Assembly: GCA_965230995.1 (NCBI GenBank)
Contig: OZ246398.1
Coordinates: 211,768-275,767 of the forward strand
Direction: 5' to 3'
DNA from: an uncultured Candidatus Saccharibacteria bacterium
GTDB lineage: Bacteria > Patescibacteriota > Minisyncoccia > Phycocordibacterales > G965230995
DNA: 64,000 bases
In this document: positions 1 to 34,248 of the stretch, in pieces
Position numbering within the stretch: the stretch's first letter is position 1
Layout of the letters: every line of letters starts with the position of its first letter
The notes under the pieces: generated by a model
What the model was told of the DNA's origin: nothing
The model's database searches: none
The model's input: only the letters and a program-made list of their open reading frames with translations
Translations under genes and position numbers: made by a program

Positions 1-113
1 AAAGCTTTGCTTCTTTTTTTCTTTGTATGTTTGTTCTTCATATAATATAGAGTATATACAATTGAAAGAACGAAGACAAAGCAAAAACGGGCGACGCCCG
101 TTTTTGCTTTTAA

Positions 114-287
114 TTACATATCATCCATATCATCAAAAGGATCTGCATCCAAGTCTTCTTCTTCCCCAAGCTCGTCTAGGGAAACAGTCTCGTCGTCACC
201 TTCCTCGAGAAGTTCTGCATCTACTGCACCCTCCTCGGTTTCTTCTTCATCATCGTGGCCAAATGCCTTTAATTCATCGTCACTCAT
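114..287 (-). CDS. Small, very acidic 58-aa ORF not in the supplied track (MSDDELKAFGHDDEEETEEGAVDAELLEEGDDETVSLDELGEEEDLDADPFDDMDDM). Function unknown.
   Basis: Hand-translated from the minus strand. ATG at 287-285, TAA at 116-114. Sits directly downstream of ruvC on the same strand. The opposite-strand track ORF 23..349 has a biased, implausible composition. Confidence 0.25.
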   Translation of the reverse strand: MSDDELKAFGHDDEEETEEGAVDAELLEEGDDETVSLDELGEEEDLDADPFDDMDDM

Positions 288-404
288 TGTTCTTTTTAAT
301 TTTTACAATGCTAATTGCGAGCTTGAAAATGTCGCTTTCATATTTGTAGCAAATTAATATTTTTTTGCAACCCCTAAAACAGGAGATACAGTTGGGGAAA
401 ACTT

Positions 405-881
405 TTAACCTCGATAATGAGCAAAAAAAGTGAGACCAACAGCAATCGCGTCATATTCGTCATCGTGTTTTATTATTTTGTCTATTTTAATTATCATTGG
501 CAACATTTTAATGATGTGCTCTTTGTCGCTTTTTCCATAACCCGTCGTTGCGACTTTTATCTGTGGCGGTGTGTATTCAAAAATAGGTAATCCGTTTTCT
601 GTTGCTCTAGCAAAAATAACACCTCTTGATTCGGCAACAAGCAGGGCTGTTTTTTGATTTGTATTAAAAAACAGAGATTCTATTGATAAACATTCGGGAG
701 AATATTTTTTTATAATCTCAGATATTCTTTTATCTATTTGGAGAAGTCTCTCTCCGTGCGTGTCTTTTGGTGATGTTTTAAAGCATTCCGAAAAAACGAG
801 ATTTTCTCTTTGACCTTTTTCTTTTTCAATTATTGCAATACCAAGTCTTTCATAACCAGGGTCTATTGAAATTATCCTCAT
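405..881 (-). CDS. ruvC: Crossover junction endodeoxyribonuclease RuvC (Holliday junction resolvase)
   Basis: N-terminus MRIISIDPGYERLGIAIIE is the classic RuvC start, with catalytic acidic residues. Length of 158 aa fits the family. Confidence 0.8.
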   Translation of the reverse strand: MRIISIDPGYERLGIAIIEKEKGQRENLVFSECFKTSPKDTHGERLLQIDKRISEIIKKYSPECLSIESLFFNTNQKTALLVAESRGVIFARATENGLPIFEYTPPQIKVATTGYGKSDKEHIIKMLPMIIKIDKIIKHDDEYDAIAVGLTFFAHYRG

Positions 882-939
882 TTATCTATTATATGTCATT
901 TCAATAAAAAATGTTTTATCTGATATAATAGATAAAAAT

Positions 940-3165: not shown

Positions 3166-3169
3166 ACAA

Positions 3170-3197
3170 AAGCCCCTTGCGGGGCTTTTGTTTTATT
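3170..3197. terminator. Bidirectional rho-independent terminator between the LamG gene (+) and yebC (-)
   Basis: aaaagcccc-ttgc-ggggctttt hairpin flanked by A and T runs. Approximate coordinates. Confidence 0.5.
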
Positions 3198-3726
3198 CAG
3201 CATTTGTGTAAACACCTTGGACATCATCATTTTCTTCGAGTTCGTCTATTAACGCGCCAAGTTTTTCACCGTCTTCTTCGGATATTTTGTTTGGTGTCTG
3301 AGCCGTCCACTCTCTGTTTTCATTTTTAGAAAAAGCCCAAGACGCCGCCCCTGCAGTTGCGAGACTACATCCATTTTTTGATAAAATATGTCGAACCTCT
3401 GCTGCTGTTTTGTTTCTGTTGTCTGTTAGAGCTTCTATTATGATTGCTGTTCCTCCCGGTCCGTAAGCTTCGTAGGTGACTTCTTCCATCTGTGCTCCGC
3501 CTGCTTCGGTAGCTTTTTTGATTGCTCTCTCGATGTTGTCGTTTGGCATATTTACTTCTTTTGCCTTTGCGATAGCCATTCGAAGACCAGGAGAATCAAC
3601 ATTTCCTTTTGCTTTCTTTGCTTCAACAGTAATCAAACGCACTGCTTTTCCAAAGAGTTTACTTTTTTGACCATCAGTTGCTTCTTTCTGTCTCTTTATC
3701 TTTGACCATTTGTTATGACCGGACAT
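3193..3726 (-). CDS. yebC: YebC/PmpR family probable transcriptional regulator (short form)
   Basis: MSGHNKWSKIKRQKEATDGQKSKLFGK matches the conserved YebC N-terminus. Classic position between ruvC and ruvB. Confidence 0.8.
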   Translation of the reverse strand: MSGHNKWSKIKRQKEATDGQKSKLFGKAVRLITVEAKKAKGNVDSPGLRMAIAKAKEVNMPNDNIERAIKKATEAGGAQMEEVTYEAYGPGGTAIIIEALTDNRNKTAAEVRHILSKNGCSLATAGAASWAFSKNENREWTAQTPNKISEEDGEKLGALIDELEENDDVQGVYTNAE

Positions 3727-4024
3727 ATATGCGAGTTTAATAGTAATTAAGAAAATACTACTTCAAACGTTGATGTTTTTCAATACGGTGTTTCTGTATA
3801 AAAATTCTAACGCAAAAAATGTTTGGCAGACAATGTTGACTGACGTTTTATTTATGCGTTCATAAGTAAAAAATACTTTCTAAACAACTTTGTCATTTTT
3901 AATTTTCTTTAGTCATCGTTGTTTAGAAAGGGTTTTTACGTTGCAACAAGATAATGTATAGATAAAAAGAATGGCAAGGTTGTTTAAAAAACCCTTTTGT
4001 TTCACTTTGTTGTTAACAATTGAG

Positions 4025-5029
4025 TTATTTCACCGGGTAATCAATTCCAATATGTGCGTATCCTTTTTCGGTGACGATTCTCCCTCGAGAAGTTCTCTCG
4101 ATTAGACCGAGTTGCAAAAGAAACGGCTCGTGGAATTCTTCTATCGTTGCTTGTTCTTCGGAGAGGGCAGCAGATAGTGTGTTTAGACCAACGGGGCCAC
4201 CTTTGTATTTGTTTACAATAGTTTCAAGCAGAGTCCTGTCGGCAGGAAAAAGACCGATTTCATCTACGCCAAGAAGGTTTAATGCCTCGGCCACTGTTTT
4301 TTTATCAAGAGGTTTTTTGTGAATTTGTGCAAAATCTCGAGCTCTCTTTAAAAAGTTGTTTGCGATTCTCGGTGTGCTTCGACTTCTTCGGGCTATTTCT
4401 TCAACGCCTCCATTGTCTATTGAAACGCCTAATATGCCAGCAGAACGCATTGTGATTCTTCCGATTTCTTCGGGTGTATAAAATTCAAGCTTATAAACAC
4501 CGCCACCAAAACGTGATCGGAGTGGAGAAGATATCATTGAAACTCTGGTAGTTGCGGCAATCAATGTAAATCTAGGCAAATCTAATTGTATTGTTCTCGC
4601 TGATGGGCCTTTACCGATAATAATATCGAGCACTCCCGATTCCATAGCAGGGTAGAGGACTTCTTCGATTGATTTGTTTAATCTGTGTATTTCGTCTATA
4701 AAAAGGATATCACCGGGAGAAAGGTTGGTTAAAATCGAAGCAAGATCACCGACTTTTTCTATTGCTGGGCCAGAAGTAATTTTAATTTGGCTTCCTGTTT
4801 CTTTGGCTATGAGGTGGGCGAGGGTAGTCTTTCCTAAACCTGGTGGACCATAAAATAATATATGTTCTGGGATATGACCGCGCTCTTTGGCTGCATCCAA
4901 AAGAATTTTTAAGTTCTTTTTTATGTTTTCTTGACCGACATAATCGGAAAAACACTCGGGGCGGAGAGCCTGATCGAGGGTTTTGCTATCCTCGTGATTG
5001 TGAAGTGGAGTACTTGACATAAAAATCAT
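4025..5029 (-). CDS. ruvB: Holliday junction branch migration helicase RuvB
   Basis: AAA+ Walker A GPPGLGKTTLA and the RuvB-specific N-terminal LRP..F..YVGQE motif. 334 aa. Confidence 0.9.
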   Translation of the reverse strand: MIFMSSTPLHNHEDSKTLDQALRPECFSDYVGQENIKKNLKILLDAAKERGHIPEHILFYGPPGLGKTTLAHLIAKETGSQIKITSGPAIEKVGDLASILTNLSPGDILFIDEIHRLNKSIEEVLYPAMESGVLDIIIGKGPSARTIQLDLPRFTLIAATTRVSMISSPLRSRFGGGVYKLEFYTPEEIGRITMRSAGILGVSIDNGGVEEIARRSRSTPRIANNFLKRARDFAQIHKKPLDKKTVAEALNLLGVDEIGLFPADRTLLETIVNKYKGGPVGLNTLSAALSEEQATIEEFHEPFLLQLGLIERTSRGRIVTEKGYAHIGIDYPVK

Positions 5030-5378
5030 TTTGTGCTAACGTGTTAAGCACAGATAAACGAAGCCGTATTGCGGTTTCGCGGACATTAAATCCAAAATAC
5101 AAATCTCTAAGCTACTGGGCCTCCCGGTCTAACAAGTTTTTTCGCAAGGACGTTCTGGCTTCAAGATTCGTCTTGATTGCGAGAGCTATCCTCAGGGAAA
5201 AACATGACTTTAAAGTACTTTTTAAAGTGTGGCTTAGAGATTTGTGCGTTGGATTTTTTTAATCTCTACAATTTCTATTATCCACAGAGGCTATTATATT
5301 GCAACAAAAAAACGGGGGATAAAGGAGTTTTAAATTCTTTTTATATAGTGTCAAATAGATGTTCTAATATGCTTTAGT

Positions 5379-7097
5379 CTAGTAGTCTGTTTCTAGATCT
5401 ACAACACGTCCAACTTCGTCGAAAGAAGTTTCTCCTCTTAATATTTTTAGGATAGCATCTTGTTTCATATTGAGAATATTTTGTGGTTTTGCTGCGTTCC
5501 AAATTTCTCTTTCACTTGGATAATTCATAACAGTATCTTCGATTGCTTTGTCGCTTAGGATTGCCTCATAGACACCAGTTCTGCCTTTGTAACCTGTGTT
5601 ATTACATTTATCGCAACCGGATGCGATAAAATGTTTTTCTGTTTGAATTCCTTCGAGATAACTTTTGTCGCCGATTGTTCCCAGTATTCTGTCTATAATG
5701 GTTCTTTCGTTTCCTGTAACGGGAACTTCTTTTTTACATTCGCTACATAATTTTCTAACGAGTCTTTGTGCCATACTCACGGTGAGGGCCGATGTGAGGA
5801 CTTTTGGACTGATTCCAAGATCAATTAATCTAGGGTATGTTCCAGCTGCATTGTTTGTGTGCAATGTAGAAAATACTATGTGTCCTGTGAGTGCCGAGTT
5901 TATAGCAATAGAAGCAGTTTCATTGTCTCGAATTTCACCGACCATAATTACGTCGGGGTCTTGTCTCAATGCTGCTTTAAGTCCAGAGGCAAAAGTGTAA
6001 TTCTTGTTTTCGTCAGTCTGTGTCTGGACGATACCTTTCATATGATATTCGATCGGGTTTTCAATCGTAATGATTTTTATTTCCGGATCATATTTTTTCT
6101 TTAGAAAGGCGTATAGGGAAGTGGTTTTTCCAGAACCTGTCGGACCAGTGGTGAGAATCATTCCGTTTGGTTTGTTCATTTCACGGATCAAAATATCAAG
6201 CAATTTTTTGTGTATGCCAAGTTTTTCGAGATCAACAGAAATAGAAGCTGGGTCGAGTACTCTCATTACAACAGAGTCATCATATGTGCTGGGTACGATA
6301 GATGTTCTGATTTCAATTTCTACTTCTCCGATTTTTATAGAAAAACGACCGTCTTGCGCACCTTGGATATTTACTTTCATCCCAGATATGAGCTTTATTC
6401 TTGAAAGTACCAGAGAATATGTTCGCAGATCAAACATCGACATATCTGTGAGTACTCCATCTAGTCTATATCTAAGTCGGACTTGTGTTTCGGTAGGTTC
6501 CAAATGTATATCTGAAGCTTTGAGAGAAAGAGCACCTGCGAGGATGACTTCCATTATCTTTGTGAGGCGATTGCTTTCGGTCGAAGAAACTAATTTTGCT
6601 ATTAGGTTAGTTACATTTACTATTGATTTTATTTCTTCACGGAGCCTGTTTATATTTTCTTCTGAAATAATGATAGAACCAGCAGTCGATGTGGTTGCGT
6701 GTGACAATTCTTCGTATCTGTCCCAGACTCTCTTTAGGCTCTGTTCAGAAACCATATACATTTCGACAACAAAACCTTTTCTTGTCATTTCTTCTTCGAG
6801 CATTTTTACTTCGTCGTTTTGTGGGGCGAGTGCGCCGACAGAAACTCTCTTTCCAACAATATTAAAAGGAGCAACTCTTATTTTTCTCGCTGTTTCTTCG
6901 TCTATTGCCCTCAGAGCGTCTATATTAATAGGAAAGAAAGATAGGTTTACATATGGAATACCAGATTTCTCTGATAAAGCTTTTGCGAGATCCTCGCCCT
7001 CGCGAGATCTTATTTTTGCAAGATCATCATCACGCTTTTTTTCATCGTCAAAATTTGTCATATTACATACATAATATACTTTATTTTTTCTACTCAC
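5379..7097 (-). CDS. pilB: Type IV pilus assembly / type II secretion ATPase (PilB/GspE family)
   Basis: GspE N-terminal domain, Walker A GPTGSGKTT, a VGEIRD box, and a C-terminal tetracysteine CSEC...CDKC zinc motif. Confidence 0.8.
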   Translation of the reverse strand: MSRKNKVYYVCNMTNFDDEKKRDDDLAKIRSREGEDLAKALSEKSGIPYVNLSFFPINIDALRAIDEETARKIRVAPFNIVGKRVSVGALAPQNDEVKMLEEEMTRKGFVVEMYMVSEQSLKRVWDRYEELSHATTSTAGSIIISEENINRLREEIKSIVNVTNLIAKLVSSTESNRLTKIMEVILAGALSLKASDIHLEPTETQVRLRYRLDGVLTDMSMFDLRTYSLVLSRIKLISGMKVNIQGAQDGRFSIKIGEVEIEIRTSIVPSTYDDSVVMRVLDPASISVDLEKLGIHKKLLDILIREMNKPNGMILTTGPTGSGKTTSLYAFLKKKYDPEIKIITIENPIEYHMKGIVQTQTDENKNYTFASGLKAALRQDPDVIMVGEIRDNETASIAINSALTGHIVFSTLHTNNAAGTYPRLIDLGISPKVLTSALTVSMAQRLVRKLCSECKKEVPVTGNERTIIDRILGTIGDKSYLEGIQTEKHFIASGCDKCNNTGYKGRTGVYEAILSDKAIEDTVMNYPSEREIWNAAKPQNILNMKQDAILKILRGETSFDEVGRVVDLETDY

Positions 7098-7136
7098 AAA
7101 CTGTCTTTTACCTGTTTTTTTGCTAGTATAGTCTAT

Positions 7137-7589
7137 ATGGAGAAAAGTATGACTTATGAATTAAAAGCGTCAGAAGATATGGCTGTACCCGCCAGAGACT
7201 TGTTTAATTTGATAGAAAAAAGAAAAGGCGAAGCGGTCGTCGTTGCTTTGAAAGGGGATTTGGGAGCTGGAAAAACAACTTTTTCAAAGGAATTTGCAAA
7301 ACTAATTGGTGTAAAAGAAGAAATAGTTAGTCCTACTTTTGTACTGATGAAAATATATGATATGGAAAGCAAAGGTTTCAAAAAATATATTCATATCGAT
7401 GCATATCGTTTTGCAAACGAAAAAGAGCTTTCTTCGCTCGGCTGGGACGATTTGATTTCAGATGAAAGTCATTTGATTTTTATAGAATGGCCGGAGATGG
7501 TTTCTGGTCTAATACCAGATAATGCAATTAGACTTTCGTTTGAACATGGTGAAAGGGAAAACGAGAGAAAACTTTCAATAGAAATATAA
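7137..7589 (+). CDS. tsaE: tRNA threonylcarbamoyladenosine biosynthesis protein TsaE (YjeE)
   Basis: P-loop GDLGAGKTTF followed by an SPTF motif. Length about 150 aa. Confidence 0.75.
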   Translation: MEKSMTYELKASEDMAVPARDLFNLIEKRKGEAVVVALKGDLGAGKTTFSKEFAKLIGVKEEIVSPTFVLMKIYDMESKGFKKYIHIDAYRFANEKELSSLGWDDLISDESHLIFIEWPEMVSGLIPDNAIRLSFEHGERENERKLSIEI

Positions 7590-9967
7590 TGAAAAAACAA
7601 GATAAAAAAACACTAGTATTGCTCGACTCACATGCCATATTGCATCGGGCATATCACGCACTGCCAGATTTTTCATCGAGCAAAGGTGAACCAACAGGAG
7701 CGCTCTATGGTGTTTCAACAATGCTTATCAAAATAATCTCTGATCTAAAACCAGATTATATTGTTGCTTGTTTTGACTTGGCTGACAAAACATACAGACA
7801 CGAAGCATACGAAAATTACAAAGCCGGCAGATCAAAAGCGGATGACGAATTGATTACTCAGATAAAAAGGTCGTACGATCTATTTAATGCTTTTGGCATA
7901 CCAATGTATTCGTATTCTGGATTTGAGGCAGACGATATGCTCGGAACGATTGTCGAACAAACCAAAGACAAAGATGATTTGAATATAATTATTGCTTCGG
8001 GTGATATGGATACTCTCCAGTTGGTATCAGGAGACAAGGTAAAAGTTTTTACTTTGAAAAAAGGAATTAAAGACACGATTATCTATAACGAAAAAAACGT
8101 AATAGAGAGATTTGGATTTGGGCCAAAACTAATCCCAGATTACAAAGGTTTGCGAGGTGATCCTTCGGATAATATTATCGGCATAAAAGGAATTGGTGAA
8201 AAAACCGCAACTGATTTGATTGTTAATTTTGGAACGATAGAAAATATTTATAAAACTCTCAAAAAAGACGAGGATGCTTTGCTCAAAAAAGGAATAAAAC
8301 CAAGGATCATTGATCTATTAAAACAAGGGGAAGAAGAGGCTCTGTTTTCAAAAATGCTCGCAACAATCAGGATAGATGCACCTATTGAATTCAAATTACC
8401 AGAAGAAAAATGGGTTGATAATGTGCCTTTTGAAAAAATAAAAGATTTCTTTTTGGAATTAGAATTCAGGACTCTTGCGGATAGACTGAGAATGGCTTTG
8501 GGTGTTGGCGAGACAAAGAGTCTTTTAGGTGAAGAAGTTTTATCCGAAGAAAACATTGATAGTGAAAAATTAATTAGAGCAAAAATCGGACTTTGGGTTT
8601 TGGATTCAAATATTACCGAACCAACCCTAGAAAATATTTTTTCTTTTGCAAAAACAAAGAATTTTGAAAACGCTCTCGTTATCATAGAAAATGAAATAGA
8701 AAAAAGAGGACTGGCTTTTGTTTTTAATAAAATAGAAATTCCGCTTGTGCCTATTGTTGCAAAAATGAAAGATAGAGGAGTCAAGATTGATACTGATGTG
8801 TTAAAAAATCTTTCGAAAGAATATACAAAAGAATTAGAATCACTTGAAAAAAACATTTTTGATTTGTCAGGAAAAGAATTCAATATAAAATCTCCAAAAC
8901 AGCTCGGGGGTATTTTGTATGATGATTTGGGTATAAAACCAAAAAGACAAAAGAAAACTGGTACCGGTCAAAGATCGACTGCAGAAAATGAATTGCAAAA
9001 GATGGCGGACTTACATCCGATCATTAAACCAATACTTGAATACAGGGAACTGCAAAAATTGCTTTCTACATATATAGACAATATTCCAACACAGGTTTCA
9101 GAAGATGGTAGGCTTCGTGCAACATTCCTCCAGACAGGAACAACGACAGGTAGAATGTCTTCGAAGGATCCTAATCTGCAAAATATTCCAATCAAAACAG
9201 AACTTGGAAGACATATAAGAAAAGCTTTTGTTGCTGAAAATGGTTTTTCTCTGGTTGCTTTGGACTATTCCCAAGTTGAGCTTAGAATTGCGGCATTTCT
9301 TTCAGAAGACAAGAGGCTTATCTCTGCTTTTGTGAACGGAGAAGATATTCACAGTGCTGTTGCAAGCGAGGTCTTTGGTGTCCCAATAGAAAAAGTAGAC
9401 AAAGAAATGAGAAGGCGAGCAAAGGTTATAAATTTTGGAATACTTTATGGTATGGGAGTAAATGCCCTTAGGCAGAATCTCGGTGAAAACATAGAAAGAA
9501 GCGAGGCACAACAATTTTATGATACCTATTTTGAAAAATTTTCTGGTCTAGCAAACTACATACAAAAGATAAAAGCAGAGGCCGAGAGGAAAGGGTACAC
9601 AGAAACTGTATTTGGAAGAAGAAGATATTTTGAAGGTTTCAAATCCAAATTACCCTTTATCAGAGCCCAGGCCGAGAGGATGGCGATAAATGCTCCAATA
9701 CAAGGAACGCAGGCTGATTTGATAAAATTATCTATGCTTGGAATTGATGAATATATCTCTTCGAAAATGAAAGACGAAGCTTTTCTAATATTACAAATAC
9801 ACGACGAAGTAATATATGAAGTTTCAAACGAAAAAGTTTCTGATTTTGCAAAACAAGCAAAGAAAATTATGGAAGGGATACTCGTTCCAGAAATGACAAA
9901 GGGAGTGCCAATAATTGCAAATGCGTCTTTCGGTAAAGATTGGGGAGATATGAAAGAAATAAAATAA
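7589..9967 (+). CDS. polA: DNA polymerase I (5'-3' exonuclease plus polymerase domains; short form)
   Basis: FEN-like N-terminus (LLDSHAILHRAYHA), polymerase motif B RRRAKVINFGILYGMG, and motif C LQIHDE. Confidence 0.9.
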   Translation: MKKQDKKTLVLLDSHAILHRAYHALPDFSSSKGEPTGALYGVSTMLIKIISDLKPDYIVACFDLADKTYRHEAYENYKAGRSKADDELITQIKRSYDLFNAFGIPMYSYSGFEADDMLGTIVEQTKDKDDLNIIIASGDMDTLQLVSGDKVKVFTLKKGIKDTIIYNEKNVIERFGFGPKLIPDYKGLRGDPSDNIIGIKGIGEKTATDLIVNFGTIENIYKTLKKDEDALLKKGIKPRIIDLLKQGEEEALFSKMLATIRIDAPIEFKLPEEKWVDNVPFEKIKDFFLELEFRTLADRLRMALGVGETKSLLGEEVLSEENIDSEKLIRAKIGLWVLDSNITEPTLENIFSFAKTKNFENALVIIENEIEKRGLAFVFNKIEIPLVPIVAKMKDRGVKIDTDVLKNLSKEYTKELESLEKNIFDLSGKEFNIKSPKQLGGILYDDLGIKPKRQKKTGTGQRSTAENELQKMADLHPIIKPILEYRELQKLLSTYIDNIPTQVSEDGRLRATFLQTGTTTGRMSSKDPNLQNIPIKTELGRHIRKAFVAENGFSLVALDYSQVELRIAAFLSEDKRLISAFVNGEDIHSAVASEVFGVPIEKVDKEMRRRAKVINFGILYGMGVNALRQNLGENIERSEAQQFYDTYFEKFSGLANYIQKIKAEAERKGYTETVFGRRRYFEGFKSKLPFIRAQAERMAINAPIQGTQADLIKLSMLGIDEYISSKMKDEAFLILQIHDEVIYEVSNEKVSDFAKQAKKIMEGILVPEMTKGVPIIANASFGKDWGDMKEIK

Positions 9968-10841: not shown

Positions 10842-10872
10842 AAAATTAAAAGCCGAAAGGCTTTTTAATTTT
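10842..10872 (+). terminator. Long hairpin (about 13-bp stem, GAAA loop) plus T-run directly 3' of tRNA-Lys
   Basis: aaaattaaaagcc-gaaa-ggctttttaatttt. Confidence 0.4.
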
Positions 10873-11009
10873 GTGCGCCCAAGCAAGTCCGGGGGACTTG
10901 CGTGTAGGAATCGAAGCCCGATTGAGTATAATTACGAGTCCGTTTAGGACGAAGTAATTATCCAATCGGGGTACTGACCCTGTAAGGGTCGATTCCTCCT
11001 CTGCGCACA
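10873..11009 (+). repeat. A-type tRNA-linked structured element. Its 5' arm is the complement of the tRNA-Lys 3' end, followed by a conserved nested-stem core, then a near-copy of the tRNA-Lys 3' end.
   Basis: 5' part GTGCGCCCA-(hairpin)-GTGTAGGAATCGAA is the reverse complement of the tRNA 3' end. Core GAAGCCCGATTGAG..ATAATTACGAGTCCGTTTAGGACGAAGTAATTATCCAATCGGGGTACTGA is shared with 26868..27042 and partly with 30112..30271. 3' end GGGTCGATTCCTCCTCTGCGCACA resembles the tRNA-Lys 3' end. Confidence 0.5.
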
Positions 11010-11066
11010 TCGCAACAATAGAAAAACACCTCTGATTTTCAAGGTGTTTTTCTTTTGCGATGTGCG

Positions 11067-11231
11067 AGCCGGACTGAAGCGGAGCGGAGGGAGGCGGGGT
11101 CGCGACTTCGTCTTGAGTTCACGAAAGACGAAAGTTGTGACCACAAAATTAATAACAAAAGGTACACTGTCCATGTAATGGAAGATTCCTACTGCTGAAC
11201 TTTTTTAAGTGACCCCGTAAGGCTCGATTCC
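11067..11231 (+). repeat. B-type G-rich module plus two further degenerate tRNA-Lys T-arm/3' copies
   Basis: GCCGGACTGAAGCGGAGCGGAGGGAGGCGGGGTCGCGA motif shared with 27090..27316 and 25391..25514. Partial tRNA 3' copies GATTCCTACTG (about 11184) and GGCTCGATTCC (about 11221). Confidence 0.4.
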
Positions 11232-11235
11232 TTTT

Positions 11236-11670
11236 TTGACTTTTAATAAAAAATATTGCAACATTATACCGTCATCGGTTTTTAAAGCTGTTGACCTCGG
11301 TGGTATTGTGCCACTGAGAACTGTACCTTTGAGGTGTTTTATGGCTTTGCTTTGTGATGAAACTGGGAAAGACATTCGTTTTGGAGGTGTTCTCATGGCA
11401 GCTAAGCGCCGTGAGGAAACCACCTACTACGCACTGAGTGGCGAGGCGATCAATCGAATTCCGGTGTCCGAACGGCGCAATACCCCATGCCGTAAGGGGG
11501 AGTTGGGCGTGGACATCTATGAAGCAAGTTCCTCCTGCGGCTACAACGGAAGCTATACCCTGAGCGACTTTACTATGGGGGAGTTCAGCTTCTCCATCTC
11601 GAGACAGGTCGCCCAGAAGTACTTGCCGAATCACTACTCGCACTACCCGCCGGCTCAACGCAGGTCGTGA
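11236..11670 (+). CDS. Hypothetical protein in a GC-rich, apparently foreign segment. The likely true start is the internal ATG near 11395 (MAAKRREETTYYALSGE...).
   Basis: Clear switch to GC-rich, GC3-rich codons from about 11290. Long ORFs on both strands, as expected for GC-rich DNA. Function unknown. Confidence 0.3.
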   Translation: MTFNKKYCNIIPSSVFKAVDLGGIVPLRTVPLRCFMALLCDETGKDIRFGGVLMAAKRREETTYYALSGEAINRIPVSERRNTPCRKGELGVDIYEASSSCGYNGSYTLSDFTMGEFSFSISRQVAQKYLPNHYSHYPPAQRRS

Positions 11671-11777
11671 ACAGAGCTCGTGTGATCATCATCGAACCCC
11701 TCGCAGACTCACAATCTGTTAGGGGCTCTTTCTTTACCATCCTTGCTACTTTCTTCTCATTTTTATAGGATAACTTA

Positions 11778-14443: not shown

Positions 14444-14595
14444 ATTTTGATGCTAGCAAAAAAGGCCAGATAAAGCCATTGTGATTTTGTTTAGTATAAA
14501 TAGTTGACATAGCCTAGATAAAGGCGTATAATATATAGAGATAGTCAAAAGCACCTTTAAATAAGGATTTGCGAAAAATCTCAAACACAGATCAA

Positions 14596-14653
14596 GTAGC
14601 CACAGCTTTTTGTGTCTAATGTCCAAAATATGGACACAAAAAGCTGTGGCTAC
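14596..14653. promoter_or_regulatory. Perfect 21-bp inverted repeat with a 16-nt spacer, in the divergent region between fpg and a GC-rich ORF
   Basis: GTAGCCACAGCTTTTTGTGTC ... GACACAAAAAGCTGTGGCTAC. The spacer holds a second small palindrome, TGTCCA..TGGACA. Confidence 0.4.
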
Positions 14654-14715
14654 CATGTCGGTAGGCCAAGCGTAACATGCTATCCACAAGATAGCGCAAC
14701 ATAGGGGTAACCCTT

Positions 14716-15339
14716 ATGAGCACCGCAACGTTGGCGCAGGGAAAGCATCTGCTGGAACTCGCAGCACAGAATGGCTTGTCTTTCGAGGGGCACAACAGTC
14801 TCACTCAGAAAGGTCTTTTGGCCGATTTGTTCGAGGCTGCAGGTAATGGGAATCTCAACACTGTCAACCGGGATGAGTTTCGGAAGATCCTTGGTCTCGC
14901 GCCCCTCGCTATGGAAATGGTTTTGGACTACAGCCAGACGCTCGAGCAGATGATCGCCACCTGGCATTTTGACGGGTGGAATCGCGCCGTCACAATCGAG
15001 CGGTTTCCGATGCTCGGGACGGGCAAGGTTACACTTAAGCCCGAGCTCATACACTTCGACCACTGTATGTCCATCGAAGATGCGGGGGATACTATGGTAA
15101 AGCGCAAGCTCCGTCCTCCAACCCTCGCGGAACTTCTTGCTTTCGGGGCGAAGTATCCCGAACTGCAACGTAAGTTTCCGATCGTCGCGCTCGGTCAGTG
15201 TGCCAGGATCGGTGACTCTCTGTGCTTTCCGTTCCTCGACGGTACCGACGGTAGGCGCTGGCTCGATCTGGGTTGTTGCGAGGAAGGCTGTCAAAAATAC
15301 TGCCGTTTCCTCGGCGTTCGCAGTCTGAGTTCATTCTGA
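14716..15339 (+). CDS. Hypothetical protein encoded in a GC-rich (apparently foreign) island
   Basis: 207-aa ORF with balanced composition. The overlapping minus-strand ORF 14680..15294 is Arg-rich and is judged the spurious partner. GGGG-type ribosome-binding site upstream. Confidence 0.35.
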   Translation: MSTATLAQGKHLLELAAQNGLSFEGHNSLTQKGLLADLFEAAGNGNLNTVNRDEFRKILGLAPLAMEMVLDYSQTLEQMIATWHFDGWNRAVTIERFPMLGTGKVTLKPELIHFDHCMSIEDAGDTMVKRKLRPPTLAELLAFGAKYPELQRKFPIVALGQCARIGDSLCFPFLDGTDGRRWLDLGCCEEGCQKYCRFLGVRSLSSF

Positions 15340-21440: not shown

Positions 21441-21562
21441 TTTTTCTGAGTATTTTTTCTGAATACCTATGTTGCTATGCCTGAATATGTTGGTATCAAG
21501 TTCTTGTTGGGGTACGCGAGATTTGAATCCACAGGGACGTCCTTTTTAGGTTCTGTATAGTG

Positions 21563-25372: not shown

Positions 25373-25390
25373 CAATTGCGAAGCAATTTT

Positions 25391-25514
25391 ACGAACAGGT
25401 TGGAATCGAACCGTAGGAGGGGGTCGGGGAACCTGGGGTTTCCCGTGGAGGAAGGATTGGGAAAACCGTGGGTTTCCCAGGAGTTCGAAGCGAAGCGTCC
25501 AACCGAGAGGACAA
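25391..25514 (+). repeat. tRNA-Arg-linked element. 5' arm GGTTGGAATCGAACC is the complement of the tRNA-Arg T-arm. G-rich core related to the B-type module. 3' end copies the last 17 nt of tRNA-Arg.
   Basis: GTAGGAGGGGGTCGGGGAACC matches the GAGG.GGGGTCG.G motif. GAAGCGAAGCG repeat. TCCAACCGAGAGGACAA is identical to the tRNA 3' end. Preceded by hairpin CAATTGCGAAGCAATTTT. Confidence 0.4.
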
Positions 25515-26687: not shown

Positions 26688-26736
26688 TCTATGTTGAAAA
26701 AAAATAATATTCATATATACTAGCCATATCGTTTAA

Positions 26737-26809
26737 GGGCGATTAGCTCAGTTGGTAGAGCAACCCGTTTACACCGGGAAGGTCATAGGTTCGAGTCCTG
26801 TATCGCCCA
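26737..26809 (+). tRNA. tRNA-Val (anticodon UAC)
   Basis: Acceptor GGGCGAT/ATCGCCC, anticodon loop TTTACAC, T-arm ATAGG-TTCGAGT-CCTGT, discriminator A. Confidence 0.85.
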
Positions 26810-26867
26810 CAGAAAGTAGTATAGAAAGATTATGTTCTACAATTTAGATAGAAATCTATTTTGAAAT

Positions 26868-27042
26868 CCTAGAAAGCTCCTGGGGAGCTTTCGTCCAGGA
26901 CTCGAAGCCCGATTGAGCGACATTGTTTGATTTATCAGACAAGAAGTACTCTTGTGGTGCATAATTACGAGTCCGTTTAGGACGAAGTAATTATCTAATC
27001 GGGGTACTGAACATGTAATGTTCGAGTCCTGTATCGCCCACA
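26868..27042 (+). repeat. A-type tRNA-linked element (tRNA-Val copy)
   Basis: Hairpin GAAAGCTCC-TGG-GGAGCTTTC. CAGGACTCGAA is the complement of the tRNA-Val T-loop and T-stem. The conserved core is identical to the tRNA-Lys copy over ATAATTACGAGTCCGTTTAGGACGAAGTAATTATC. The last 22 nt, TTCGAGTCCTGTATCGCCCACA, are identical to the tRNA-Val 3' end. Confidence 0.5.
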
Positions 27043-27089
27043 ATTACAAAATCCACCCACAAGGGTGTGATTTTGTTTGTGGGCGATAC

Positions 27090-27316
27090 ATGGCGAGAAG
27101 GCCGGAACCGCACGGAGCGAAGCGGAGTCTGAATTCTTTTTTGCTAAAAAGAATTCAGAAGTGAGGCGGGGTCGCGAACACTTAGTCCGCGCAATATTAC
27201 GAAGTAATATGAGCAGACTTAGTGATTCGTGACCGAGTCCTGGAACATATCGAGCGAACGAGCTTTTTATGAGCCCTTAGACGAAGTAAAAAACCACGAG
27301 AGTGACCGAGTCCCTT
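27090..27316 (+). repeat. B-type G-rich module with an inserted 14-bp-stem hairpin and two degenerate T-arm copies (GTGACCGAGTCC twice)
   Basis: GCCGGAACCGCACGGAGCGAAGCGGAG ... GAGGCGGGGTCGCGA is shared with 11067..11231. Confidence 0.4.
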
Positions 27317-27359
27317 TCTTTGAAGTGCTTGTTTATTTTTGTTATGTTATCATCTTATT

Positions 27360-28307
27360 ATGGATAAATTACCTGTATCGTTAGTCGGTCTTAAACATTC
27401 CTTTGGTGAAAGAACTGTTCAGAATCATGAAATTGAAGAAAAATATGGTTTACCACCCGGTTGGATTTTAGGTAAAACTGGTAAAGAACAAGGTCATGCT
27501 TGGGACAATGGACCAGAGGCACCAGTGGAAGCTTCTGTTAATTGTCTTAATTTATTATTGGAACAGACAGGGATTAAAAAAAAGGATATAAAGGCAATTT
27601 TTGGAACAACTAATCCAATTACTATTGATGGGGTAACAGATGAAATTTCCTTAACAAAGAAATTTGCTATTAAAGCTGGGTTTCCGGAAGATGTACATAT
27701 TTCAGATGAAGGCTTTGGTTGTGGCGGAGCGGCCGTCGGAGTTGACTCTATGTGTTCATGGTTACGTGATCAACCCGTTGGAACCTATGCTGTTTACGTA
27801 ACACAGGATTGGTCAACAAAAATGGTAAAAGATCGTAATGTTGAAGCTCTTTTTTCTGATGCGATAAGTGTTTCAATCTGGACAAACGGAGAAAGTGGCA
27901 CAATGGAAGTTGTAGATGTCTTTTCTGCTACATCAACAATAGCCGACAGCGCTTTAGGTATAGTCGGAGGATTCTGGGAAATGGATGGAAAAGAGGTTAG
28001 TAAGGCAGCTTCAGAAGTGCCAGCATTGGTGGCAGAAAAATTAGGCATAGAACTAAAAAATTATAATATTGTACCCCATCAACCAAATGCTAAACTTCTC
28101 GAGACAATTGAAAGATTGTATGGAATAGAAGTATATAAAGAAGTGGCAAGGGAACACGGTAATCCGACCTGTTCCGGTGCGTTTATTGCTTTAGAGAGAG
28201 CTTTAGAAAAAGACAGCAAGTTTATTGATACAGAGAAAGATATACTTGTTATGCCTTTTGGTGCGGGGGGTGTTGGTGGTTTTATTCTAAGAAGAAAAAA
28301 TAAATAG
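27360..28307 (+). CDS. Thiolase-fold condensing enzyme, 3-oxoacyl-ACP synthase III (FabH)-like
   Basis: Overall FabH-like pattern and a GFGCGGAAVG segment. Start chosen at MDKLPVSL. Confidence 0.45.
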   Translation: MDKLPVSLVGLKHSFGERTVQNHEIEEKYGLPPGWILGKTGKEQGHAWDNGPEAPVEASVNCLNLLLEQTGIKKKDIKAIFGTTNPITIDGVTDEISLTKKFAIKAGFPEDVHISDEGFGCGGAAVGVDSMCSWLRDQPVGTYAVYVTQDWSTKMVKDRNVEALFSDAISVSIWTNGESGTMEVVDVFSATSTIADSALGIVGGFWEMDGKEVSKAASEVPALVAEKLGIELKNYNIVPHQPNAKLLETIERLYGIEVYKEVAREHGNPTCSGAFIALERALEKDSKFIDTEKDILVMPFGAGGVGGFILRRKNK

Positions 28308-30111: not shown

Positions 30112-30271
30112 CAAACGAATGAAATGAGTATGGGCACAGGAGGTCCAGCTCTTTTGTCTTAAAAGAGCGTTGGACGGATTTGAAGCTGTTGTGAGATAGA
30201 TTGCGAGGAACGAAGCAATATATCCACAACGGGTACTGAACATGTAATGTTCAAGTCCTCTCCTGGGCACA
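30112..30271 (+). repeat. A-type tRNA-linked element (tRNA-Leu copy) with covarying stems
   Basis: GGGTACTGAACATGTAATGT is identical to the tRNA-Val copy. 3' end TTCAAGTCCTCTCCTGGGCACA is identical to the tRNA-Leu 3' end over 22 nt. Core stem A is CTGTTGTG/CACAACGG where the others have CCCGATTG/CAATCGGG. Core stem B is TAGATTGC/GCAATATA where the others have ATAATTAC/GTAATTAT. Confidence 0.5.
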
Positions 30272-30359
30272 GACGAAAGATATACTTAATAATAAGTGTC
30301 ATTTGCTATTTATGGTTTTTTTGTGTTATAAATAGCTAGTTCTGCAAATGCAGACGTAT

Positions 30360-32118: not shown

Positions 32119-34248
32119 ATGGGTCTTCCACGCGAACGGCATGTGGATGGGCTGAGAGCGGTCGCCGTAATAGACGTCATTCTCGCTCATCTGAAGCTCC
32201 TTCTCGGAGCTTTCATCGGTGTCGATGTGTTTTTTGTCATCTCAGGGTATGTCATCACCAAAATTGGGAGACATACCATTGGGAAGAAAGACGAGCACGG
32301 CAGGGATATGTTTACAATTCCTGGTTTCTACAACCGGCGTGTAAAGAGAATCCTTCCTGCTGCGTTGGTGTGTCTAGCTGTAACCGTAATCGCTGGGTAC
32401 TTCTTCATCGGGCCAAGCGATTACAAAGAGACAGGAGAAGGAGCACTTGCGGCTACCTTGATGGCTGGAAACATCCATGAGGGACAGCTACCGATTGGGT
32501 ACTTTGACCACGACTTTCAGGCGAGACCAGTCAACCACTTTTGGAGTCTGGGTGGGGAAGAACAGTTTTACCTGATCTTTCCAATGGCCCTTATGCTCCT
32601 CTTGAGGTTTTGTCCAAAGAAAGCACCTGTGGTCCTTGTACTGATTGGACTGGGTCTTCTGTGCTGGAGCGGGTACTCGGTACTTGCATTCAAGGTGTGG
32701 AGGTTCTATTGCCCTGCAAACAGGGCATGGGAACTGATTGCTGGTGCGTTGCTAGCTTTCCCGCCGATTGGTGTCAAAACCAAGATGGGGGGAAAGATAG
32801 TGATTGTTTTGGTGGGGGTGTCTCTCGTTCTGACTGTCGGCGGAGTCCTGCAGGGTATGTTCCTGTTCGTAATTTCCGCCGTGCTTATGCTCGGGACTGG
32901 TGCTTTAGTCTTGTATCGTCCGGAGAATCCGACACGGTGGCAAGGCGAGGTACTTAGCCTGATTGGTATGGCACTCATCGTGACCGGTTGTGTCGTCTTC
33001 GATCGAGAAACTCTGTTTCCAGGCTTTCTGGCTCTCGTGCCAGTACTGGGAGCAATGCTCGTAATTGTGGGCGCTTCAAACAAGGAGGTACTCCTGAATC
33101 GCCTGCTATTGGCTAAACCAGTATTGTACATCGGGGCAATATCGTTCTCGGTCTACCTCTGGCACTGGCCGATAATCGTCTACACCGACTTCTACTCGCC
33201 GATACCTCTCGGTCTGTGGCACAAGTTGGTGTTGATAGCGGTCACTCTTGCGGTCGCTAGTGTGAGCTACCACTTCATAGAGAAACCGTTCCAGGAAAGC
33301 AAGGCAAAGAAAGAGTCTGTGTTCTTCGCAGGCCTTATTGCTGTGCTAACTGTGTACGCCGTAGCTCTTTTGGTGGTAGACAAGAACGGTTGGCCGGAAA
33401 GATTCGGGAAGCTGGCAACGCCAGTTGTGCTGAATACTTCCGGTATCGAAATCAACGACAGCCTCGGCAAAGACGGGACATGGCTGAAACAAAAAGGCCT
33501 GCCTGTCATCGGGGACGTCAAAACAACCCCAACATTCCTTCTTGCTGGAGATTCACACGTCAACGCGTTTGTGGAGATCTTCGACAAGTTGGGAAAGGAG
33601 AAAGAAGTTTCCGGATTTGTGTCGTTTAGGTCGGGCAGTTTACCGGTTCCCGGTATATGGACCACCCGAGAGAACGACACGCCGGAAAGCTTTATGGGCT
33701 ACAACCGAGCACTCGAGCAATTCGTGCACGAGAGAAATCTCAAGCATGTATTTCTCGTTGGCAGGTGGAGCAATGCCGTAGTTGGCGATATGCTCGTATC
33801 CGAAGACCCAACGAGGAAAGAGGTAGAAAAAGAGCTGTCTGCAAGGACGCTCGAAAAAAACCTCTTTGCTCTGGTTGCGAGGCTCAAGGCTTCGGGTGTG
33901 GATGTTGTGATCGTACAACAGCTACCAGAACACCCGTTCCACGCCTACAAGAAACTGGTAGCGAGAAGGGGTCGCTTGAAAGGTGTGAGCCGAGAAGCCT
34001 ACCTTTCAAAGCAGGGGACAACGATTGATATGATCCTTCGCTCCGGCGCAAGGACTGTCGATCTATCCTCGCTCCTCTTTGAGGGGGACTGTGTGAGACT
34101 CATTGATCCCAAAGGCTATCCGATATGGTGGGACTATGACCACATCGGTGGTAGAGAGATCACGAGAATTGCTGGTCCTACGTTCGAGACGTTCTTTAAA
34201 GAAATCGCAAACCAAAAAGGAGACTTTGCGATGAACAAAAGGGAGTGA
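32119..34248 (+). CDS. Acyltransferase family 3 membrane protein fused to a C-terminal SGNH hydrolase domain (OatA/OafA-like O-acetyltransferase). GC-rich, apparently horizontally acquired.
   Basis: N-terminal DGLRAVAV...GVDVFFVISGYVIT acyltransferase-3 signature and about 10 TM helices. C-terminal domain of about 250 aa. Many overlapping alternative-frame ORFs are typical of GC-rich DNA. Confidence 0.7.
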   Translation: MGLPRERHVDGLRAVAVIDVILAHLKLLLGAFIGVDVFFVISGYVITKIGRHTIGKKDEHGRDMFTIPGFYNRRVKRILPAALVCLAVTVIAGYFFIGPSDYKETGEGALAATLMAGNIHEGQLPIGYFDHDFQARPVNHFWSLGGEEQFYLIFPMALMLLLRFCPKKAPVVLVLIGLGLLCWSGYSVLAFKVWRFYCPANRAWELIAGALLAFPPIGVKTKMGGKIVIVLVGVSLVLTVGGVLQGMFLFVISAVLMLGTGALVLYRPENPTRWQGEVLSLIGMALIVTGCVVFDRETLFPGFLALVPVLGAMLVIVGASNKEVLLNRLLLAKPVLYIGAISFSVYLWHWPIIVYTDFYSPIPLGLWHKLVLIAVTLAVASVSYHFIEKPFQESKAKKESVFFAGLIAVLTVYAVALLVVDKNGWPERFGKLATPVVLNTSGIEINDSLGKDGTWLKQKGLPVIGDVKTTPTFLLAGDSHVNAFVEIFDKLGKEKEVSGFVSFRSGSLPVPGIWTTRENDTPESFMGYNRALEQFVHERNLKHVFLVGRWSNAVVGDMLVSEDPTRKEVEKELSARTLEKNLFALVARLKASGVDVVIVQQLPEHPFHAYKKLVARRGRLKGVSREAYLSKQGTTIDMILRSGARTVDLSSLLFEGDCVRLIDPKGYPIWWDYDHIGGREITRIAGPTFETFFKEIANQKGDFAMNKRE

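What the first reader, a model, noticed from the sequence alone, without database searches (positions are those of the whole stretch)
26737..27316. tRNA-Val copy of the same element: the 3' end reproduces the last 22 nt of tRNA-Val exactly and the 5' arm is complementary to its T-arm
The core here is identical to the tRNA-Lys copy over ATAATTACGAGTCCGTTTAGGACGAAGTAATTATC and GAAGCCCGATTGAG. The tRNA-specific parts have switched. The 5' arm CAGGACTCGAA is the complement of the Val T-arm, where the Lys copy has GTAGGAATCGAA. The terminal 22 nt TTCGAGTCCTGTATCGCCCACA equal the tRNA-Val 3' end. The small hairpin before the 3' arm changes from CCCTGTAAGGG (Lys copy) to ACATGTAATGT (Val copy), keeping the stem and the GUA loop. 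An optional hairpin of about 40 nt is inserted in the core. As in the Lys locus, the 3' end forms a 13-bp hairpin with downstream TTGTGGGCGATAC. The B-type G-rich module follows, carrying a perfect 14-bp-stem inserted hairpin and two degenerate GTGACCGAGTCC T-arm copies. A near-identical core attached to two different tRNAs, with locus-specific arms, is hard to explain with a single-site integrase.
Basis: seen in the sequence. Interest (0 to 1): 0.8.

Follow-up and report, generated by a model that had tools for sequence, protein, structure and literature searches.

The report
tRNA-end hairpin insertion elements of Patescibacteria
Behind tRNA-Val sits a 231-base insertion from an undescribed family of small folded elements, widespread in Patescibacteria, that land behind many different tRNA genes carrying a direct and an inverted copy of that tRNA's own 3' end, with no enzyme gene of their own.

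Summary
tRNA-Val (26737-26810) is followed by a 231-bp unit bounded by an exact 23-nt repeat of the tRNA's T-loop-to-3'-end segment (X: 26789-26811 and 27020-27042). The unit holds an inverted copy of X (26896-26906) and a conserved three-way-junction core. A second core type (B) follows, built on the same plan.

With a pattern scan and a covariance model I found 79 copies in 60 Patescibacteria loci, behind 14 tRNA identities. The 3' arm matches the upstream tRNA at a median of 20 of 21 positions, against 11.6 for other tRNAs. The helices covary strongly. Rfam, IMG/VR and the literature searches gave nothing.

A related genome has tRNA-Val joined directly to the flank that follows the second repeat in the window, which amounts to a filled site against an empty site. 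Orthologous tRNAs in relatives carry different core variants. Arrays decay away from the tRNA, and some enclose cargo genes. No integrase, transposase or reverse transcriptase lies nearby.

Best reading: small non-autonomous insertion elements with arms matched to their target, acting through a folded single strand (RNA or ssDNA) and an unknown enzyme supplied in trans. The mechanism is inferred, not shown.

The parts
26737..26810 (+). tRNA-Val(tac) gene, the target. A promoter-like site lies at 26694-26721.
   Evidence: ARAGORN; Rfam 67.9 bits; promoter scan
26789..26811 (+). X1: left copy of the 23-nt direct repeat, running from G53/T-loop to the 3' end of the tRNA plus CA
26812..26871 (+). 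Spacer S behind the tRNA. It weakly resembles the native tRNA-Val flank of another genome (L129). No terminator lies here, so the element is probably co-transcribed with tRNA-Val.
26872..26892 (+). P0 hairpin (GAAAGCUCC UGG GGAGCUUUC) with the G-rich triloop typical of the family
   Evidence: fold; family folds
26896..26906 (+). Inverted arm (antiT) CAGGACTCGAA, the complement of the T-loop plus the T-stem 3' strand. It forms P1 with the 3' arm.
26907..27004 (+). P2 domain of the A-type core. The base GCCCGATTG / AATCGGGG and the arm 26961-26995 are identical to the Lys copy. It holds a 43-nt optional insertion at 26918-26960.
27005..27021 (+). Conserved junction strand (G)TACTGA and the P3 hairpin ACAT-GTA-ATGT
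27020..27042 (+). X2: right copy of the 23-nt direct repeat, and the 3' arm of P1
27043..27077 (+). Intrinsic terminator T1. In relative L136 the stretch that comprises this terminator plus the 13 bases after it (27078-27090, the inverted acceptor copy listed under the next part) directly follows tRNA-Val; the two versions match at 44/46 positions by my count of the alignment columns.
27078..27244 (+). B-type element. It begins with an inverted copy of X (27078-27099, 83% complementary), continues with a G-rich core holding an inserted perfect 14-bp hairpin (27128-27159), and ends in TTCGTGACC|GAGTCCTGG, a truncated copy of X.
27245..27316 (+). Degenerate further 3' end: the second GTGACCGAGTCC at 27302-27313, taken as an older, decayed unit
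10870..11009 (+). A-type copy behind tRNA-Lys: inverted acceptor 10870-10880, P0, antiT 10904-10915, core, and a diverged X2 at 10986-11009
11063..11232 (+). B-type module and two degenerate A-like 3' ends (11168-11190 and 11210-11232) behind the Lys copy
30131..30272 (+). A-type copy behind tRNA-Leu(gag). Its 35-nt direct repeat (91% identity) runs 12 nt beyond the tRNA end.
25374..25514 (+). A third core type (C) behind tRNA-Arg(tct). Its 15-nt inverted arm (25398-25412) is perfectly complementary to the tRNA T-arm, and its 17-nt direct repeat lies at 25498-25514.

Best explanation
The Val feature is one copy of a family of small (about 150-230 bp) insertion elements of Patescibacteria that encode no protein and sit at the 3' ends of tRNA genes. 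Each unit has the order [spacer or terminator] - [inverted copy of the tRNA 3' end, usually split by hairpin P0] - [conserved core: long hairpin P2, junction strand GUACU, hairpin P3] - [direct copy of the tRNA segment from the T-loop to the 3' end].

Shown: the unit lies between two direct copies of that tRNA segment. The inverted and direct copies can pair to close a three-way junction. The helices covary. Copies occur behind 14 tRNA identities, with arms that follow the local tRNA. Units stack in arrays, sometimes enclosing cargo genes. Orthologous tRNAs in related genomes carry different variants or none.

Inferred: the unit moves as a piece that supplies a replacement tRNA 3' end, so the tRNA stays intact and the old 3' end is left downstream. 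The active form is a folded single strand, either ssDNA or the read-through transcript. In it the helix formed by the inverted and direct copies reproduces the double-stranded target next to a conserved junction, and an enzyme encoded elsewhere recognises that junction. This is the logic of integron attC sites, the CTX-phage attP(+) hairpin and the guide pairing of IS200/IS605. The enzyme, the strand and the chemistry are unknown.
For: Direct and inverted repeats. Filled site against empty site: the flank behind X2 in the window (27043-27090) matches the flank directly behind tRNA-Val in relative L136 at 44/46 positions (my count on the alignment), so 231 bp are extra in the window. The same tRNA-Val has no element in L129. 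Family: 79 copies at E<1e-6 in 60 loci, 63 of them with a same-strand tRNA within 450 nt upstream, covering 14 identities. The 3' arm matches its own tRNA at a median of 20/21 against 11.6 for other tRNAs. Structure: 88% of cells paired, 25 of 33 pairs with changes on both sides, 0 of 500 shuffles as good, and the signal collapses when partners are slid. Fold z-scores are -5 to -6. Turnover: orthologous tRNA-Leu(gag) and tRNA-Arg(tct) in relatives carry other core variants. Arrays of different variants with the same arms: L112, L051 and L038. Cargo between tRNA and element: L035, 3.3 kb, and L082, 1.6 kb. The inverted arm follows X1 and its flank, not the flank of X2: L113, window Lys, L084, L085. 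Three core types share the same arm plan.
Against: No integrase, transposase, reverse transcriptase or HUH gene lies in the 64-kb window, and none recurs near the 60 loci. No copy turned up in IMG/VR with two patterns. No free, circular or junction form was seen. How both arms are reset for a new tRNA is unexplained. Strand asymmetry in the stems is weak, with 115 G.T against 73 A.C. The strongly conserved, covarying core and co-transcription with the tRNA at the Val locus would fit a functional RNA equally well. The filled-against-empty comparison is between species (Alr 71% identical), and both lineages have rearranged.
Confidence: 0.5

Rival explanations
1. A host cis-acting structured RNA. 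The element would be a 3' trailer domain of tRNA transcription units, for example acting in termination, 3' processing or control of that tRNA. Its closing helix would happen to be built from a copy of the tRNA end and be kept matched by local gene conversion and quasi-palindrome correction. It would not be mobile.
For: It always lies on the tRNA strand and downstream. At the Val locus there is no terminator between the tRNA and the element, and there is a terminator right behind X2. Covariation is strong, and the loops and junction strand are conserved. A U.G pair occurs at one P2 position in 19 of 39 copies.
Against: Only part of the tRNAs carry it, and the same tRNA-Val lacks it in L129. 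Orthologous tRNAs carry different variants. Arrays include decayed units and units with truncated X2 whose cores are intact. Cargo genes lie between the tRNA and the element. Most loci have a terminator between the tRNA and the element. Three unrelated cores share the same arm plan.
Confidence: 0.2
2. A retro- or RNA-guided mobile element. The read-through transcript (tRNA 3' end, spacer, core, X2) would be the mobile intermediate, and the arms would pair with both strands of a tRNA gene end to direct insertion. Insertion would be primed from the target or carried out by a recombinase guided by the RNA. The arms would then be a true programmable guide.
For: The RNA would carry one segment complementary to the target and one identical to it, as bridge RNAs do. 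The spacer that came in with the Val element weakly resembles a native tRNA-Val flank from another genome. The left boundary of the repeat is fixed in the T-loop for each core type. Bases after X2 read CCA in 8 of 32 loci against 2 of 32 after X1.
Against: No reverse transcriptase or IS110-type gene was found nearby. Group II introns are reported absent from Patescibacteria (PMC13011429). Most X2 copies repeat the genomic flank rather than CCA. The guide would be locked in a helix of about 20 bp.
Confidence: 0.15
3. Ordinary scars: leftover attachment sites of conventional integrase-borne islands or prophages that once sat in these tRNA genes.
For: Direct repeats running from the T-loop to the tRNA 3' end are the classical signature of tRNA-integrating elements (my knowledge of P4-type integrases). 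Degenerate tRNA-end fragments occur behind several tRNAs in the window.
Against: The sequence between the repeats is a conserved, covarying fold of 90-130 nt shared by deep Patescibacteria lineages. An inverted copy of the target is present and follows the tRNA identity. The family covers 14 tRNA identities and no integrase is nearby.
Confidence: 0.07
4. Chance: the arm matches only reflect the general similarity of T-arms.
For: The T-loop TTCGAnTCC is shared by most tRNAs, so about 8 of 12 arm positions match any tRNA.
Against: The 23-nt exact repeat includes the acceptor strand specific to each tRNA. Own tRNA scores a median of 20/21 against 11.6/21 for others. Shuffled windows give no such matches.
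Confidence: 0.01

Closest known systems
Integron gene cassettes and attC sites
   Same: Units without a recombinase gene are stacked in one orientation behind a fixed entry point. Each unit ends in an imperfect inverted repeat that folds as a single strand. The order is core site, cargo, inverse core site, variable central structure, core site. Some units hold cargo and many hold no ORF. The boundary lies at G|TT.
   Different: The entry point is a tRNA gene, not attI. The paired boxes are 20-25 nt copies of the local tRNA end rather than GTTRRRY/RYYYAAC. The central structure is conserved in sequence. No IntI gene was seen.
CTX-phage type ssDNA integration (folded attP(+) used by host XerCD; IMEX elements)
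   Same: The integrated form carries two inverted copies of the target-like site, roughly 90-130 nt apart, at one end of the element, and a functional target site at the other end. The element encodes no recombinase. Tandem arrays occur.
   Different: The target is a tRNA 3' end, not dif. No Xer-like sites were recognised. The elements are about 200 bp and were not found in viral contigs.
tRNA-integrating genomic islands and phages (P4-type integrases)
   Same: The direct repeat runs from the T-loop to the 3' end of the tRNA, and the inserted DNA supplies a new tRNA 3' end.
   Different: There is no integrase. The size is 150-230 bp. There is an inverted copy of the site and a conserved folded core. 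One family covers 14 tRNA identities.
IS200/IS605 elements and their PATE derivatives
   Same: Folded hairpins define the ends, and an internal guide sequence pairs with the flanking target, so the target can be reset. Protein-free derivatives exist.
   Different: The guide there is 4-5 nt and not Watson-Crick only. There is no target duplication. TnpA/TnpB genes and omega-RNA are absent here. Rfam models give no match.
IS110 bridge RNA / seekRNA
   Same: One RNA carries segments that read both strands of a target, and specificity is set by sequence.
   Different: Bridge RNAs use short guides in internal loops next to a DEDD recombinase gene. Here the two segments are 20-nt arms paired with each other, and there is no such gene.
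MITEs
   Same: Small, non-coding, multi-copy, with terminal inverted repeats and flanking direct repeats.
   Different: The terminal repeats differ at each locus and equal the neighbouring tRNA end. The inside is a conserved, covarying fold.

Membership tests
Integron cassette / attC | R''/R' boxes RYYYAAC ... GTTRRRY | tested here: not met
   The boxes are tRNA-specific. The T-loop reads GTTCGAG or GTTCAAG, with C at box position 4.
Integron cassette / attC | An IntI integrase next to the array | tested here: not met
   No recombinase in the window or recurrent in the 60 loci.
Integron cassette / attC | Folded single-strand hairpin conserved in structure, with cassettes in arrays | tested here: met
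   Covariation; arrays; cargo.
tRNA-integrating island (tyrosine integrase) | Direct repeat of the tRNA 3' part flanking the insert | tested here: met
   23-nt exact repeat; family-wide 20-21 of 21.
tRNA-integrating island (tyrosine integrase) | Integrase gene inside the insert | tested here: not met
   The insert is 231 bp with no ORF. The cargo loci L035 and L082 also lack one.
IS200/IS605 / PATE | No target duplication; a specific 4-5 nt target; TnpA/TnpB or omega-RNA | tested here: not met
   23-nt duplication; no Rfam match; no such ORFs.
Group I / group II intron | Match to the intron covariance models, and interruption of the host gene | tested here: not met
   Rfam finds only tRNAs. 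The tRNA is intact upstream.
Retron ncRNA | Adjacent reverse transcriptase and an msr/msd fold | tested here: not met
   The next gene is a KAS-III-like ORF. No RT lies in the window.
IS110 bridge RNA | Adjacent DEDD/RuvC-like recombinase, with guides in two internal loops | tested here: not met
   No such gene. The only RuvC hit is the housekeeping RuvC at 405-881. The arms are paired helices.
Self-cleaving ribozyme (hammerhead and others) | Match to a known ribozyme consensus or model | tested here: not met
   No Rfam hit even at E<=10. By my reading of the fold, the order of the junction strands (GUACUGA, then none, then GAAR) does not fit the hammerhead order. Self-cleavage itself is not testable here.
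tRNA-like structure with free acceptor end | 7-bp acceptor helix with single-stranded NCCA | tested here: not met
   The inverted arm also pairs with the discriminator, CA/CCA and flank bases.

The most novel reading that the evidence does not exclude
The elements are a new class of protein-free mobile elements whose target is written in their own arms. In the folded single strand (RNA or ssDNA), a 20-25 nt inverted copy and a direct copy of the target form a duplex that imitates the tRNA gene end beside a conserved catalytic or recognition junction. Re-writing the arms would be enough to send the same core to any tRNA gene. That would make this a naturally programmable insertion system, with an enzyme supplied in trans or even ribozyme chemistry.
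Probability: 0.2. Interest if true: 0.9.

Novelty: new variant of a known kind. Interest (0 to 1): 0.72.

Why it matters
Patescibacteria have some of the smallest bacterial genomes, yet in the sampled loci a sizeable share of tRNA genes carries one or several of these 150-230 bp structured units. They are not annotated, are not in Rfam, and did not appear in the literature searched. If they are mobile, they show a way of entering tRNA genes without a resident integrase, with specificity carried by arms that pair with each other. That bears on how att sites and guide-directed recombination evolve, and it could be exploited as a programmable system. If they are instead host RNAs, they are a large new family of tRNA-linked structured RNAs. 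In both cases they explain the many tRNA-end fragments and assembly breaks next to tRNA genes in these genomes, and they mark places where accessory genes enter.

Tried and rejected
1. Known RNA families. Rfam at gathering score on the window and on 8 loci, and at E<=10 on 26700-27400, gave only tRNAs and one RNase P.

2. Hammerhead or k-turn reading of CUGA/GAA. By my reading of the fold, the order of the junction strands does not fit. GAA is simply the complement of T-loop TTC, because it is kept even in variants whose X2 lacks TTC.

3. Copy of the mature tRNA made by reverse transcription. Most X2 copies repeat the genomic CA/flank rather than CCA. Only a weak CCA excess remains, 8/32 against 2/32.

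4. Phage or plasmid origin. Two pattern scans of IMG/VR gave only chance hits inside coding sequence.

5. A linked enzyme. Clustering all ORFs of the 60 loci gave no recurrent recombinase. The top cluster, a 228-aa HTH protein, proved to be merely syntenic with tRNA-Arg(tcg) and tRNA-Gly(gcc). Its model (pLDDT 87) has no PDB fold match.

6. Pfam sweep of 40 window ORFs: housekeeping genes only.

7. An obligate A+B pair. B accompanies A in only 5 of 64 cases.

8. Strand test. G.T against A.C is only 115 to 73, so RNA cannot be told from ssDNA and the strand is only weakly supported.

9. Exact-protein look-up of the neighbouring gene gave only a short contig that starts about 140 nt upstream of that gene, beside the element.

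10. The metagenome scan with the tRNA-Val sequence gave a single locus.

11. Reading P0 as an anticodon arm or the unit as a permuted tRNA. The P0 loops are GGG triloops.

Full report
WHAT IS THERE. The window looks like a Patescibacteria (CPR) chromosome, about 37% G+C, with seven tRNA genes. Its alanine racemase is closest to proteins from Patescibacteria or Parcubacteria assemblies.

tRNA-Val(tac) lies at 26737-26810. Its last 23 bases (G53, T-loop, T-stem 3' strand, acceptor 3' strand, discriminator, CA) recur exactly at 27020-27042. The segments between the two copies, in order, are:
- a 60-nt spacer;
- hairpin P0 (26872-26892);
- an 11-nt perfect inverted copy of the T-loop and T-stem 3' strand (26896-26906);
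- a core made of a long hairpin P2 (26907-27004, with a 43-nt optional insertion at 26918-26960), the strand (G)TACTGA, and the small hairpin P3, ACAT-GTA-ATGT.

The RNA fold closes a three-way junction by pairing the inverted arm with the second direct copy. Its energy is -64 kcal/mol, z = -5.6. The Lys and Leu copies fold the same way, with z of -6.0 and -5.1.

THE SAME PLAN, SEVERAL CORES. Behind X2 come a terminator and then an inverted copy of the acceptor strand (27078-27090). This starts a second unit with a different, G-rich core (B type) that ends in TTCGTGACC|GAGTCCTGG, a truncated tRNA-Val end. A further degenerate end follows.

The Lys locus has A, then B, then two decayed A-like ends. 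tRNA-Arg(tct) carries a third core. Its 15-nt inverted arm is perfectly complementary to the tRNA T-arm, and its direct repeat is 17 nt. B-type units with the same arm plan occur in L035, L051 and L109.

A WIDESPREAD FAMILY. I scanned one genome per species for CGGGTACTGA-N4-GTAA-N3-TC. Of 123 pattern matches (window included), 61 passed a family filter that requires an upstream GAAGC/GAAAC and a complementary P3. The filter let through at least one chance hit, L075 in Pseudarthrobacter. The rest lie almost entirely in Patescibacteria: Saccharibacteria, Paceibacteria, and Kaiser-, Taylor-, Nomura-, Lloyd- and Zambryskibacteria.

A covariance model built from 39 copies finds 79 copies (E<1e-6) in 60 loci plus the window, often several per 8 kb. 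Of these, 63 have a tRNA on the same strand within 450 nt upstream, covering 14 identities.

The 3' arm equals the upstream tRNA at a median of 20 of 21 positions, against 11.6 for other tRNAs. The inverted arm follows the T-arm as well. Full folds show the general architecture: tRNA, terminator, inverted acceptor strand, P0 (often with a GGG triloop), inverted T-arm, GAAR, P2, GUACU, P3, then the direct copy of the T-loop-to-3'-end segment, then a terminator. In some copies the tRNA's own terminator takes the place of P0.

The helices covary. 88% of cells are paired, 25 of 33 pairs have changes on both sides, no shuffle out of 500 reaches this, and the signal collapses when partners are slid. 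GUACU(GA) and the P3 loop are nearly invariant even where the neighbouring base pairs change. The GAA of the other junction strand is simply the complement of T-loop TTC.

Rfam has no such family, IMG/VR holds no copy, and six literature searches found no description. The nearest paper concerns group I introns in anticodon loops (PMC13011429).

THE ARMS ARE COPIES OF THE GENE END. The inverted arm also pairs with the discriminator, the following CA or CCA, and one to three flank bases. The direct repeat often runs into the flank: 35 nt at the Leu locus and more than 40 nt in L043. This points to an event at the DNA level or on the primary transcript. It does not point to a mimic of a free acceptor end or a copy of mature tRNA.

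Where the two direct copies differ, the inverted arm usually follows the tRNA copy and its flank (window Lys, L084, L085, L113). This fits the reading that the tRNA-proximal copy, spacer, inverted arm and core belong together and that the distal copy is the displaced original.

EVIDENCE FOR INSERTION AND TURNOVER. In relative L136 (alanine racemase 71% identical), tRNA-Val is followed directly by AAATACAAAATCCACCCGCAAGGGTGTGATTTTGTTTGTGGGCG. In the window the same sequence follows X2 instead, matching at 44/46 positions by my count of the alignment. Relative to that arrangement the window therefore holds 231 extra bases bounded by the 23-nt repeat.

Another genome has the identical tRNA-Val with no element, and its flank weakly resembles the window's spacer. 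L136 has its own A-type copy behind that flank, and there the tRNA-plus-element block is inverted relative to the neighbouring genes.

Orthologous tRNA-Leu(gag) in L136 and tRNA-Arg(tct) in L138 carry other core variants than the window. Arrays hold different variants with the same arms (L112, L051, L038). Units decay with distance from the tRNA.

In L035, 3.3 kb lie between tRNA-Ser and a B+A pair. They hold two ORFs: one of 261 aa that looks to me like a DUF4263/Shedu-type nuclease (not scanned) and one of 469 aa. In L082, 1.6 kb with two small ORFs lie between two units at tRNA-Tyr.

WHAT IS MISSING. No integrase, transposase, reverse transcriptase or HUH protein is encoded in the 64-kb window, and none recurs near the 60 loci. 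The one recurrent neighbour, a 228-aa HTH protein, is merely syntenic with tRNA-Arg(tcg) and tRNA-Gly(gcc). Stems show only a mild excess of G.T over A.C, 115 against 73. So RNA and ssDNA cannot be told apart, and even the folding strand is only weakly supported.

At the Val locus there is a promoter-like site before the tRNA, no terminator between the tRNA and the element, and a terminator right after X2. The element is therefore probably transcribed there as a tRNA trailer.

INTERPRETATION. The best-supported reading is a family of small, non-autonomous insertion elements at tRNA 3' ends. Each brings a replacement tRNA end and folds, as a single strand, so that an inverted and a direct copy of the target form a helix beside a conserved junction. 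The formal layout matches integron cassette arrays and the integrated CTX prophage: functional site, cargo, inverted site, a structured centre of about 100 nt, then site. It also recalls the guide pairing of IS200/IS605. However, the defining sequence boxes and enzymes of those systems are absent, so this is a resemblance in logic, not membership.

Three things remain unexplained: which enzyme acts, how both arms are reset for a new tRNA, and what the conserved core does. A host cis-acting RNA role is the main rival and is not excluded. It fits the decay, arrays, cargo, patchy distribution and turnover poorly. Ordinary integrase scars and chance are disfavoured or refuted.

VERDICT. The finding is real, is not explained by a known family, and generalises to a large unannotated family. 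I rate the mechanism at 0.5 for mobile elements with target-matched arms. I give about 0.2 to a truly programmable system, whether RNA- or ssDNA-guided.

Noticed in passing
window 11236-11700 and 14680-15339: Two stretches richer in G+C (about 45%, against a background of about 36%). Their long ORFs, on both strands, have no Pfam match. The first lies just beyond the Lys element array. They may be foreign DNA or unrecognised RNA.
   Followed up: partly
window 14562-14663: A long, near-perfect palindrome (AGCCACAGCTTTTTGTGTC ... GACACAAAAAGCTGTGGCT) gave weak hits to the element model on both strands. It is probably an unrelated bidirectional terminator.
   Followed up: no
window 32119-34248: A 709-aa acyltransferase-3/SGNH fusion gene in a region of about 50% G+C, far above the window mean. 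It is likely horizontally acquired.
   Followed up: partly
window 21505-21530 (- strand), behind tRNA-Ser(tga): GGATTCAAATCTCGCGTACCCCAACA resembles the T-loop-to-3'-end segment of some tRNA but not of the adjacent tRNA-Ser. It may be a relic of an older element or of a rearrangement.
   Followed up: no
window tRNA genes; loci L001-L115: Most tRNA genes here are followed by CA (CAA or CAG) after the discriminator rather than CCA. The distal repeat X2 is followed by CCA in 8 of 32 loci, against 2 of 32 for the tRNA itself.
   Followed up: partly
window 10986-10990, 25484-25497, 27116-27124; many loci: The motif GCGAAGC, which I recall as an unusually stable DNA mini-hairpin, or close variants of it, recurs in the tips of P2, in the B and C cores and in the spacers of these elements.
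   Followed up: no
L052 (contig labelled Nostocoides, Actinomycetota), 1-8000: G+C falls from 0.69 to 0.47 to 0.33 along the locus, near the end of a 402-kb contig. The best-scoring element copy lies in the 0.47 part with no tRNA upstream. This looks like a chimeric assembly rather than a true host outside Patescibacteria.
   Followed up: partly
L139-L142, L001, L054, L020, L068: A conserved 225-230 aa protein of unknown fold with an N-terminal HTH sits between tRNA-Arg(tcg) and tRNA-Gly(gcc). In L139 to L141 its 3' end overlaps the tRNA-Gly gene by about 14 nt. Many homologues are on contigs of about 1 kb.
   Followed up: yes
L035 561-1346: The ORF between tRNA-Ser and the elements looks like a DUF4263/Shedu-type nuclease, judging by its motifs only. 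That would make the cargo a defence gene.
   Followed up: no
L136 1040-1115: A relic of an element 3' end (GTTCATGTAATGAAAGATATCCAACCGAGA) that matches tRNA-Arg(tct). ARAGORN found no tRNA-Arg anywhere in the 6.4-kb locus, so the tRNA gene seems to have moved or been lost while the relic stayed.
   Followed up: partly
L113/L034/L092, behind X2 of tRNA-Ser elements: The same sequence, CCAAGTCGTGCTAGCACGAGACG, with a palindromic centre, follows X2 in three genomes and behind two different tRNA-Ser isoacceptors. It may be the start of yet another conserved module.
   Followed up: no
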